Assembly: GCA_951406725.2 (NCBI GenBank)
Contig: OX597815.1
Coordinates: 145,018,001-145,082,000 of the forward strand
Source of the DNA: Octopus vulgaris
Lineage: Eukaryota
DNA: 64,000 bases
Direction of reading: 5' to 3'
Part shown: in pieces, positions 4,529-7,135 of the stretch
Position numbering within the stretch: the first letter of the stretch is position 1
Layout of the letters: every line of letters begins with the position of its first letter
Made by a program: the position numbers

Positions 4529-7135
4529 TGGGTTGTGGAGTGGCAGAATCCTTGGAGCACTGGACAAAATGTTTAGTGGCATTTCATCTGGCTCTCTACA
4601 TTCTGAGTTCAAATCTTACCTAAGTCAACTTTGCAGTTCATCTTTTTTCAGGGTTTATAGAAGATAGTACCAGTTGCATACTTGGGCCAGTGATATTGAC
4701 TAACTCTCTCGTCCCCAAAATGTTTGTCTTGTACCTAAGTCAAAATCCATTATTCTTCCTGTATCTGTCCTGTTTATATTAATACATCTCCTCTTTTATT
4801 TATTTCAGGGTATTTGTCCAGATATTGTAAGTATTAACAAAACTTTTCCAATCGGATTTCTTTTAACCCTAAGTAAATGCACATGGCTTTGTGGCTATTG
4901 TATTTGGCTCATGATCATAAGGTAGTGAGTTCAATTCCTGGTGACACGTGTCCTTGAGCAAGGCACTTTATTCCACACTACTCAAGTCCACTCAGCAGGC
5001 CAAAATTAGTTGTACATGTATTTCAAAGGGCCAGCCTTGTTTCACTCTGAGTTATACTGGCTCTCTCTGAGAACTACATTAGGGGTATGTCTGTCTGTGG
5101 AATACTCAGCCGCTTGCATGTTAATTCCATGAGCAGTCTGTTCTGTTGATTAAATTAACTGGAACACTCATTGTCATAACTGCCAGAGGGCCAGTTTAAC
5201 CCAAGGCTAGCTCTGATCAAATAGGCCTATCATCACAGTTGAGCCAGCACTGTCCATCTTGTCTCATTATTTTTTTTACCTGTAACTACATTAATTAATC
5301 TGCCCCTCTTTAATTTTTGTGAGTCAGTGGGGGTATGATTTGAAGGAAATTTGGCTTTTATTTCTAGCACTAAGGGGCTTTTTCATTGACCCTTGTTCAG
5401 AGTGACTTCTGTGTGTGTGCATATGTGCATGTGTGTGCATGTATGTATATATGTATGTGCATGTGCATGCATGTATGTATATATGTATGTGCATATATGT
5501 TTATATGTATGTACATGTGTGTGCATATGTATATGTGCATATATGTATATATGTATGTGCATGTGTGTGTATGTATGTATATATGTGTGTGCATATGTGT
5601 GTGTGCATGTATATATATATATATATGTGCATGTGTGTGCATGTATGTATATATGTATGTGCATGTATGTATATATGTTTGTATATGTGTGTGTATATAT
5701 GTGTTTGTGCCTCTTTGTCTGACATTGAGCATCACCACCGCACTATTAGTTCTTCGTTTCCAATCTTCCAGAAGTATTATCTTACCTGGAAGACAAGCTA
5801 AACAATAACATCATCATCATCATCATCAACAGTAATTAGGGAGCCTTTATATGGTTGTTGCACCTGCTAGAAATAACAGCTAAATCTCCTTCAAATCACT
5901 TCCTACTGTCTTTAAAAAATGAGACACAGATAAAAATAGTCAAGGCTAGAACACCTTTGATCATAGGTTTGCTTGAGTGTTATAAATCATTATTATTATT
6001 ATTATTATTATGTCCGCTTTCGTTAAGGCGGAGGTATTGTTTTCAGTTGTGTTTGTTTGTCTGATTGTTTTTCTGTGGACAAGATATCTCAAGAACTGCT
6101 GGATAGATTCGGATGAAATTTTCAGGGATGTTTGGCCTCATGACAGGCAGGAATTGGTAAGATTTTGGGATCGATTCTGGATTACTTTTCCTGTTTTTTT
6201 TAACTGAAATTTGCAGTATTCTCATTTGTGAAAGCAGTCGAGTTTATTTCAGATATTCTCATTTTAAAAATCATCTCCAGCTAATCGTTGAGAGGACGTT
6301 GGTATTGCCTTGGAAGAGAGGTTTGCATTCTCTGAGTGCTCCTGTAATTATTAAGGTAGCGAACTGGCATAAACGTTAGCATGCTAGGTGAAATGTTTTA
6401 CAGTATTTCGTCTGTCACTACATTCTGAGTTCAAATTCTGCCGAGGTCAATTTTGCCTTTCATCCTTTTGGGGTCGATAAATTTAGTACCAATTGAGTAC
6501 TGGGGTTGATGTAATTGATTATTCCCCTCCTCCAAATCTCAGGCCTTGTGCCTATAGTAGAACATATTATTATTATTATTATTATGCTAATTTAGTTTGC
6601 AGGTATTTTATCTTGAGGTTTGGTGACAAAAAAGTCTCCTGAAATCCCAAGAATCTTCCTTAGGATTCTGACAAAATGATGGTACTTTTCTGCAGGTCGA
6701 CAATGCAAGTTTCAATTCCAATTTCTTTCAGTCTGTTAGGTAGCATTTTGGGTGCTGTACCAAATACACCTTTACTACAGGAATAACTGTTGTCTTGGTC
6801 TTCCACAGTCTCTTCATATCTCAAGCTAAATCCTGATATTTTTTGACTTTTTCAATTTCTTTTGTATCGACTACTATTACAGGGAATTCCAAAGTCTATG
6901 ATCTTATACTGTGTGTTTATTTTGTCCTCTATGGTCACTTCTGGTCTTGCCTCAGTAGTGTTCTTTTATTTGTTTCGGTCATTTGACTGTGGCCATGCTG
7001 GAACACCGCCTTTAGTTGAACAGATAGACTCCAGGACTCTCTATAAGCCTAGTACTTATTCTATTGGTCTCTTTCACTGAACCGCTAAGCTACAGGGATG
7101 TAAACACACCAGCATCGGTTGTCAAGTGATGGTGG

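What the first reader, a model, noticed from the sequence alone, without database searches (positions are those of the whole stretch)
4809..4826. 18-nt in-frame microexon inside a core motif of RNA polymerase III RPC2
Seen: a six-codon exon (GICPDI) with strong splice sites, in only ~120 nt of unique sequence between two SINEs. It is followed by an 8046-nt intron, and I found no recognisable upstream exon in the preceding 4.8 kb. Established: GxxPDIIxNPH is a deeply conserved motif of second-largest RNA polymerase subunits. Inference: the exon must be essentially constitutive. Because it is a multiple of three, skipping would escape NMD and yield a six-residue-deleted, probably inactive subunit, which is a possible switch for Pol III (tRNA/SINE) output. 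Automated annotation is likely to miss it.
Basis: partly seen in the sequence, partly recalled or inferred. Interest (0 to 1): 0.7.

Follow-up and report, generated by a model that had tools for sequence, protein, structure and literature searches.

The report
Real 18-base exon in octopus POLR3B
A genuine six-codon exon encodes part of the catalytic core of the octopus RNA polymerase III second subunit; it is already in the public protein models for this species, so it is real but ordinary, and there is no sign that it acts as a switch.

Summary
Window 4809-4826 (+) reads GICPDI between a 17/19-pyrimidine acceptor ending in CAG and a GTAAGT donor. An 8046-nt intron follows, then five more RPC2 (POLR3B) exons ending at the stop codon at 27067. 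No upstream exon lies in 1-4808.

- **Not chance.** Even a degenerate form of the motif occurs once in 64 kb across six frames. 0 of 300 shuffles gave it with AG/GT flanks.
- **Already annotated.** The window's exons match the Octopus vulgaris/sinensis RPC2 protein at 100%, and that protein already contains GICPDI. The claim that annotation will miss it is wrong for this genome.
- **Missed elsewhere.** 3 of 116 named models lack exactly these six residues: Pinctada imbricata, Elysia marginata and Trichoplax adhaerens. With GT-AG introns this is only possible if the hexapeptide is its own exon there too. I infer an old metazoan microexon that some pipelines drop.
- **No evidence of a switch.** 12 of 12 cephalopod entries covering the site include it. 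No microexon regulatory motifs lie nearby.

Verdict: a constitutive microexon, already known in substance, of low interest.

The parts
1..4808 (+). 3' part of the intron upstream of the microexon (intron at least 4808 nt; the preceding exon, which should end ...EDMPFTDQ, lies outside the window)
   Evidence: No match to P0034 residues 780-922 in 1-4808 beyond noise
4300..4737 (.). dispersed short repeats upstream of the unique island (SINE-like in size and copy number; class not established)
   Evidence: Up to 17 overlapping in-window blastn matches; ARAGORN 0 genes; no relevant Rfam match
4786..4808 (+). acceptor: polypyrimidine tract (17 of 19 pyrimidines at -22..-4) ending in CAG
4809..4826 (+). 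18-nt phase-0 coding microexon, GICPDI (residues 923-928 of the Octopus RPC2 protein P0309; 922-927 in human RPC2 numbering)
4827..4832 (+). donor GTAAGT
4827..12872 (+). 8046-nt intron, full of dispersed repeats and degraded retroelement-like ORFs
4873..5195 (.). dispersed repeat downstream of the unique island
   Evidence: Up to 6 in-window matches, best 78% over 308 nt to 47114-47421
12873..12978 (+). RPC2 exon, 106 nt, [35 protein letters not shown]
   Evidence: (PF00562, 43.8 bits)
14613..14709 (+). RPC2 exon, 97 nt, (A)[32 protein letters not shown]
22296..22493 (+). RPC2 exon, 198 nt
   Evidence: PF00562 70.6 bits, PF04560 33.2 bits; 100% to P0309
25522..25611 (+). RPC2 exon, 90 nt
   Evidence: (100%)
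26935..27067 (+). last RPC2 coding exon, 133 nt including the TGA stop
   Evidence: (100%)

Best explanation
4809-4826 is a genuine, constitutively included 18-nt coding exon of the Octopus orthologue of POLR3B/RPC2, the second-largest subunit of RNA polymerase III. It supplies six residues (GICPDI) of the invariant G-x-x-P-D-I-I-x-N-P-H segment of Rpb2 domain 6. That segment lies between the EDMPF acidic pair encoded by the upstream exon and the PSRMT basic segment encoded by the next exon. Shown: the exon, its splice signals, its position and frame relative to the five downstream exons, and the presence of its residues in the public protein of this species. Inferred: it is recognised without any special regulator, through an unusually good acceptor and a consensus GTAAGT donor, as reported for constitutive microexons. 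Also inferred: the same two phase-0 introns exist in a bivalve, a gastropod and a placozoan, so the microexon would be an old metazoan gene-structure feature, not a cephalopod novelty.
For: Sequence and splice signals. The microexon has 17/19 pyrimidines plus CAG, and ATT|GTAAGT. The other acceptors in the gene have 14-19 of 19 pyrimidines. Order and arithmetic: the six exons total 642 nt = 213 codons + stop, which equals residues 923-1135 of P0309. Identity: three exons are 100% identical to P0309 (Octopus vulgaris CAI9718326.1 / O. sinensis XP_029654611.1, XP_036369816.1), and P0309 reads ...EDMPFTDQGICPDIIMNPHG.... Not chance. Constitutive: 12 of 12 cephalopod entries covering the site carry the hexapeptide, including 7 unnamed entries from contigs of 2.3-4.4 kb, which is transcript size. 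One further entry does not reach the site. Conservation of the residues: 113 of 116 named eukaryotic models. Age: 3 of 116 lack exactly residues 923-928 and nothing else at that place. They are P0083 Pinctada imbricata, P0236 Trichoplax adhaerens and P0131 Elysia marginata. My reasoning: a Gly codon (GGN) cannot begin a GT intron, and an Ile codon cannot end in AG. A clean 18-nt omission with canonical sites therefore requires a separate exon. Passages of PMC8831610 state that constitutive microexons in human brain have stronger splice-site motifs, and that small microexons are often missed in annotation.
Against: No RNA reads from this organism were available, so inclusion in this genome is inferred from protein models and from relatives' transcript-size contigs. 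The upstream exon is outside the window, so the upstream junction was not seen. The gene structures of Pinctada, Elysia and Trichoplax were not seen. Their six-residue gaps could come from real skipped transcripts or from misaligned reads, not only from a predictor dropping the exon. Most non-NCBI invertebrate models do carry the hexapeptide (for example Lottia, Capitella, Pomacea), which says nothing either way about their exon structure. Two vertebrate models hint that vertebrates have no intron here: the Mugilogobius model is frame-shifted from VCGLIV into PDIIMNPHG, and homology in the Smutsia model starts at GVCGLIV. So the feature is not universal.
Confidence: 0.92

Rival explanations
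1. Regulated cassette: the exon is skipped in some tissues or states. This would give an in-frame, NMD-immune RPC2 lacking six core residues, which would lower or poison Pol III output.
For: The length is a multiple of three. Three public models in other species lack exactly this hexapeptide, and these could in principle derive from skipped transcripts. Microexons are in general harder to splice (passages of PMC8831610).
Against: 12 of 12 cephalopod entries covering the site include it. The splice signals are among the best in the gene. No TGC lies within 80 nt upstream of the acceptor and no GCATG within 289 nt on either side. The local RNA fold is no more stable than shuffles (z 0.37). Pro and Asp of the hexapeptide were the same in all 113 models that carry it, so a deleted subunit has no evident use. 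The searches found no paper on such an isoform.
Confidence: 0.04
2. Not an exon: the hexapeptide is encoded at the end of the unseen upstream exon, and 4809-4826 is a chance or relic look-alike.
For: The upstream exon is outside the window. A second 16/18 look-alike without splice sites exists at 19366-19383, so near-copies of this 18-mer can occur.
Against: 0 of 300 shuffles gave the motif with AG/GT flanks. The site lies in the right order and frame, on the right strand, in unique DNA. Its flanks show no homology to the preceding coding sequence, so it is not a duplicated exon end (the frame upstream reads ...HLLFYLFQ). Three models in other phyla treat exactly these six residues as a separable unit.
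Confidence: 0.02
3. A real exon, but of limited phylogenetic spread: the two flanking introns arose within molluscs, and the Trichoplax gap has an unrelated cause.
For: Only the octopus structure was seen directly. The Trichoplax model has nine other gaps against the Argonauta protein, so it is a poor model overall.
Against: The Trichoplax gap has exactly the same two boundaries, 923-928. The canonical-splice argument applies to it as well.
Confidence: 0.2

Closest known systems
RPC2 of Octopus vulgaris / O. sinensis (P0309; CAI9718326.1, XP_029654611.1, XP_036369816.1; 1135 aa)
   Same: 100% identical to three whole window exons. It matches the window over the printed parts of the other two and contains GICPDI at 923-928.
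   Different: None seen. The window holds only the last 213 codons. The annotation's exon table could not be read here.
Human RPC2 (POLR3B) in solved Pol III structures, e.g. 7a6h_B
   Same: The exon after the microexon aligns to residues 928-962 at E 3e-16. The hexapeptide therefore corresponds to 922-927, and all vertebrate models scanned carry GICPDI/V.
   Different: The human gene structure was not examined. Two vertebrate gene models hint at a longer exon spanning the site.
Conserved constitutive microexons inside domain cores in plants (e.g. the 9-nt VYLG exon of AP2 genes; PMC8831610, passages read)
   Same: A tiny exon encodes core residues of a conserved domain, is evolutionarily old, and is dropped by some annotation pipelines so that the resulting proteins are wrong.
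   Different: Different kingdom, gene and size. Here the microexon is already annotated in the species at hand.
Neural, SRRM4-dependent alternative microexons of animals (3-27 nt; abstracts of PMC7935315 and PMC8378409 in the listings)
   Same: Size class and multiple-of-three length.
   Different: This is a housekeeping gene. The exon is included in every cephalopod sequence seen. No TGC lies within 80 nt upstream of the acceptor. That this motif defines the class is recalled, not taken from a call.
Constitutive 4-bp microexon of MPC1 (PMC9929638, abstract only)
   Same: A very small exon that is constitutively included.
   Different: Its length is not a multiple of three, it is a different gene, and it was studied with minigenes.

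Membership tests
RPC2 / POLR3B orthologue (second-largest Pol III subunit) | Rpb2 domain 6 and domain 7 matches above Pfam's curated cut-offs | tested here: met
   PF00562 scored 43.8 and 70.6 bits (cut-off 23.4); PF04560 scored 33.2 bits (cut-off 32.1)
RPC2 / POLR3B orthologue (second-largest Pol III subunit) | Closer to Pol III RPC2 than to Pol I, Pol II or archaeal second subunits | tested here: met
   Exon 12873-12977 scored 60.1 and 47.9 bits to human and yeast RPC2, 32 bits or less to archaeal B, 29.5 or less to RPA2 and about 22-23 to RPB2
RPC2 / POLR3B orthologue (second-largest Pol III subunit) | Colinear match to a named RPC2 protein through to the stop codon | tested here: met
   Six colinear pieces cover residues 923-1135 of P0034/P0309
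Internal coding microexon (30 nt or less) | Length of 30 nt or less with canonical AG and GT on either side | tested here: met
   18 nt, cag| and |gtaagt
Internal coding microexon (30 nt or less) | Introns on both sides | tested here: met
   The downstream intron is 8046 nt. Upstream there is no coding match in 4808 nt, while the protein continues for 922 residues. The upstream exon itself was not seen.
Internal coding microexon (30 nt or less) | Its residues are present in the mature message | tested here: inconclusive
   They are present in the species' public protein and in 7 transcript-size contigs of related cephalopods. No reads from this genome were available.
Regulated (SRRM4-type or RBFOX-type) alternative microexon | TGC-containing element close upstream of the acceptor, or GCATG nearby (features recalled, not taken from a call) | tested here: not met
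   No TGC within 80 nt upstream (the nearest is at -134). No GCATG within 289 nt on either side.
Regulated (SRRM4-type or RBFOX-type) alternative microexon | Both included and skipped forms exist in the same lineage | tested here: not met
   0 of 12 cephalopod entries covering the site lack the hexapeptide. Rare isoforms cannot be excluded this way.
Regulated (SRRM4-type or RBFOX-type) alternative microexon | Tissue-dependent inclusion | not testable with these tools
   No RNA-seq access
SINE (the repeats flanking the unique island) | Short element in many dispersed copies | tested here: met
   36 non-self in-window matches to 4300-5400; units of about 120-310 nt
SINE (the repeats flanking the unique island) | Head derived from tRNA, 7SL or 5S RNA | tested here: inconclusive
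   ARAGORN found 0 genes. Rfam gave no tRNA, 7SL or 5S match at E of 1 or less. The B-box-like GAGTTCAA strings are my reading only.

The most novel reading that the evidence does not exclude
The 18-nt exon is a pre-bilaterian microexon kept for over half a billion years because occasional skipping is useful. A six-residue-deleted RPC2 that escapes NMD would assemble into dead Pol III and throttle tRNA and SINE transcription. On this reading the exact six-residue gaps in the Pinctada, Elysia and Trichoplax entries would be traces of that isoform and not annotation errors.
Probability: 0.03. Interest if true: 0.7.

Novelty: already known. Interest (0 to 1): 0.2.

Why it matters
For this genome it matters little: the exon is real and the public protein already contains it. 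There are two small practical points.

First, at least three public RPC2 entries lack six invariant core residues exactly where this exon sits: Pinctada imbricata KAK3098091.1, Trichoplax adhaerens XP_002115589.1 and a 309-aa Elysia marginata model. They are best treated as annotation errors to correct.

Second, if the inference holds, this is an animal example of a very old constitutive microexon inside an enzyme's catalytic core. It would parallel what has been described for plants (PMC8831610).

From memory only: a human leukodystrophy variant at Asp926 of POLR3B falls in this hexapeptide. The searches found no paper in the library to confirm this.

Tried and rejected
- **Query too short.** One search failed because the query was 35 aa and the minimum is 40. 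It was repeated with a 45-aa reference from the same frame.
- **Relatives' ORFs spanning the microexon.** The exhaustive representative search with the stop-to-stop ORF 4704-4922 gave two weak hits at 38% identity (P0307, 4353 aa; P0308). I did not open them and they told me nothing.
- **More six-residue-deleted proteins.** I searched with the Pinctada junction region. Only Pinctada itself matched without a gap. Trichoplax was found by the later scan of named hits.
- **Local RNA structure around the exon.** z 0.37; 127 of 200 shuffles fold at least as well. Rejected.
- **Splicing-regulator motifs.** None nearby.
- **tRNA-like heads in the flanking repeats.** ARAGORN and Rfam gave nothing.
- **Second look-alike at 19366-19383.** It has no splice sites and no flank similarity, so I rejected it as an alternative exon.
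- **Literature.** POLR3B + microexon gave 2 papers, neither on this topic. POLR3B + exon skipping + in-frame gave 8 papers, all on human disease variants elsewhere in the gene or in other genes, judged from titles and abstracts. The splice-variant names c.2763+/c.2764-/c.2781+/c.2782- with POLR3B gave none. Asp926 terms gave none. RPC2 + microexon gave none on topic among the 10 listed of 281.
- **Not possible here.** There is no eukaryotic genome collection and no RNA-seq. Exon structures in other animals therefore stayed unchecked.
- **Unnamed hits.** I did not use unnamed hits that could be vertebrate.

Full report
**What is there.** Window 4809-4826 on the + strand reads GGT ATT TGT CCA GAT ATT, which is G-I-C-P-D-I. 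It follows ...ctcctcttttatttatttcag and precedes gtaagt. The stop-to-stop frame around it reads ...HLLFYLFQ-GICPDI-VSINKTF.... Homology to RNA polymerase is therefore confined to the six codons between the AG and the GT. No other AG lies in the 25 nt before 4809, so the exon cannot start earlier. The next coding piece starts at 12873 ([35 protein letters not shown]) behind ...ccttatttttcag.

**Which gene.** I searched the gene exon by exon and did not join the exons into a spliced model at any step, so the joined search was left out. The exon at 12873 matches RPC2 of solved human and yeast Pol III structures best: 60.1 and 47.9 bits, aligned to residues 928-962 of 7a6h_B. Archaeal, Pol I and Pol II second subunits score 32 bits or less. 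Searching that exon against the large protein set returned cephalopod RPC2 proteins.

tblastn of the Argonauta hians protein P0034 against the window gave six colinear pieces. With splice sites read off the DNA the exons are:

| Exon | Coordinates | Length |
|---|---|---|
| A (microexon) | 4809-4826 | 18 nt |
| B | 12873-12978 | 106 nt |
| C | 14613-14709 | 97 nt |
| D | 22296-22493 | 198 nt |
| E | 25522-25611 | 90 nt |
| F (includes TGA) | 26935-27067 | 133 nt |

The total is 642 nt, or 213 codons plus the stop, which equals residues 923-1135 of the 1135-aa protein. Pfam places the downstream exons in Rpb2 domains 6 and 7.

**Is it chance?** A degenerate form of the hexapeptide, G[ILVM][CTSAV]PD[ILVM], occurs once in 64 kb over six frames. 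Of 300 shuffles that keep local composition, 29 had any hit and 0 had one with AG before and GT after. The site is also on the right strand, in the right order and in phase 0, as exon B requires.

**Upstream exon.** Neither standard tblastn nor a sensitive run with residues 780-922 of P0034 against 1-4808 found anything colinear. That run used word size 2 and E up to 1000. It gave 180 HSPs, and the best was E 0.081 in low-complexity sequence. The preceding exon lies outside the window, so that intron is at least 4808 nt.

**Flanks.** 4738-4872 (135 nt) is the only stretch around the exon without other copies in the window. 4300-4737 and 4873-5195 match dispersed repeats (36 non-self matches). 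I could not show that they are SINEs: ARAGORN found nothing and Rfam gave no tRNA-like match.

**Whose genome, and is the exon already annotated?** A second exon-wise search and a cluster look-up led to P0309. This is one protein sequence deposited for Octopus vulgaris (CAI9718326.1) and O. sinensis (XP_029654611.1, XP_036369816.1).

- P0309 is 100% identical to window exons D, E and F. It matches exons B and C over the parts printed.
- It reads ...EDMPFTDQGICPDIIMNPHG....
- The window differs at a few residues from the O. bimaculoides model P0122.
- The window is therefore from O. vulgaris/sinensis or something indistinguishable at these exons, and the public protein already contains the microexon's residues.
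- The Argonauta and O. bimaculoides models contain them too. The O. bimaculoides model instead lacks 26 residues of the next exon.

**Where the forecast does come true.** I scanned only hits that carry organism names.

| Scan | Models examined | Carry the hexapeptide | Lack exactly the six residues | Other |
|---|---|---|---|---|
| | 45 | 42 | Pinctada imbricata (EDMPFTDL-IMNPHG) | 1 frame-shifted there (Mugilogobius); 1 does not reach the site |
| | 65 proteins, 66 sites | 64 proteins | Trichoplax adhaerens (EDMPFTDQ-IMNPHG) | none |
| | 13 partial models (one already counted); 8 span the site | 7 | Elysia marginata (EDMPFSDL-IMNPHG) | 5 do not span the site |

Together, 3 of 116 models spanning the site have the precise gap and 113 of 116 carry G-x-x-P-D-x. 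A multiple alignment confirms that the Pinctada and Trichoplax gaps are exactly residues 923-928.

My reasoning is as follows. A Gly codon (GGN) cannot open a GT intron, and an Ile codon cannot end in AG. A clean 18-nt omission with canonical introns is therefore possible only if the six codons are a separate exon in those genomes too. Close relatives of each species carry the residues: Argopecten, Mytilus and Solemya for the bivalve, and Biomphalaria, Physella, Bulinus and Candidula for the slug. So the gaps are not natural deletions. I infer that the same microexon exists in Bivalvia, Gastropoda and Placozoa. It would then predate bilaterians. I did not see those gene structures.

**Vertebrates.** Two gene models hint that vertebrates lack these introns.

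- The Mugilogobius model reads a shifted frame from about VCGLIV straight into PDIIMNPHG.
- Homology in a pangolin model begins at GVCGLIV and runs through the hexapeptide.

This is weak evidence and I draw no firm conclusion from it.

**Constitutive or switch?** Of 13 cephalopod entries, 12 reach the site and all 12 include the hexapeptide. Seven of these come from contigs of 2.3-4.4 kb, which is transcript size.

- The acceptor has 17 of 19 pyrimidines and the donor is GTAAGT. The other acceptors in the gene have 14-19 of 19.
- No TGC lies within 80 nt upstream of the acceptor. No GCATG lies within 289 nt on either side.
- The local fold is no better than shuffles (z 0.37).
- Passages of PMC8831610 report that constitutive microexons have stronger splice-site motifs than longer exons, which fits.

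Nothing supports regulated skipping, but without RNA reads a rare isoform cannot be excluded. From established knowledge of multisubunit polymerases (recalled, not tested here), the hexapeptide sits between the metal-binding acidic pair in EDMPF and the basic PSRMT segment of the active-site region. An in-frame deletion would therefore most likely kill the enzyme.

**Literature.** No paper in the library treats a POLR3B/RPC2 microexon. For PMC10853796 and PMC8831610 I read passages only. For the other papers I saw titles and abstracts only.

**Verdict.** The exon is a real, constitutive microexon of a housekeeping gene, probably ancient, and already present in the public models of this species. 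The regulatory idea is unsupported. Interest is low. The by-product is the identification of three public RPC2 entries that are probably mis-annotated.

Noticed in passing
window 19366-19383 (+): A 16/18 near-copy of the microexon (GGTATTTGTCCAGAGATA, 14 nt exact) lies in the intron between exons C and D. It has no AG/GT flanks and no flank similarity. An exact sub-match of 14 nt or more occurred in 1 of 300 shuffles. It remains unexplained and is out of order for any splicing role.
   Followed up: partly
protein P0083 (Pinctada imbricata KAK3098091.1), P0236 (Trichoplax adhaerens XP_002115589.1), P0131 (Elysia marginata, 309 aa): These public RPC2 models lack exactly the six residues that the window's microexon encodes. 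They are probably annotation errors caused by the same tiny exon.
   Followed up: partly
protein P0122 (Octopus bimaculoides, UniRef A0A0L8H2E6, 1056 aa): This model keeps GICPDI but lacks 26 residues of the next exon (RMTVGK...HYGTA) and a further 53-residue block upstream. It is a faulty model.
   Followed up: no
protein P0089 (Mugilogobius chulae): This model skips about 48 residues and then reads 18 residues that fit a shifted frame of VCGLIVPQEDMPFCDTGIC before rejoining at PDIIMNPHG. This suggests a one-base error in a single long exon in that fish.
   Followed up: partly
window 10335-11427 (+): Degraded retroelement-like ORFs lie inside the 8046-nt intron. The YADD-type motif is my reading. 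Pfam gave only a PHD-finger match just under its cut-off, 23.8 against 24 bits.
   Followed up: no
window 52574-53413 (+): Two adjacent ORFs match the mariner-type Transposase_1 / DDE_3 families just below the curated cut-offs. This looks like a decayed DNA transposon.
   Followed up: no
window 27068-64000: Among 146 ORFs of 75 aa or more across the whole window, none beyond the RPC2 stop codon matched a Pfam family except the transposase remnant. No second gene was recognised.
   Followed up: partly
window 1-2000: This stretch is strongly C-rich and low in complexity (GC skew -0.37), with microsatellites such as (CA)n near 1600-1680.
   Followed up: no
protein P0001 (metaclust, unnamed, 1068 aa): This chimeric model has the RPC2 segment around the motif duplicated and a tyrosine-phosphatase domain fused at the end. 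That explains its inflated scores.
   Followed up: no
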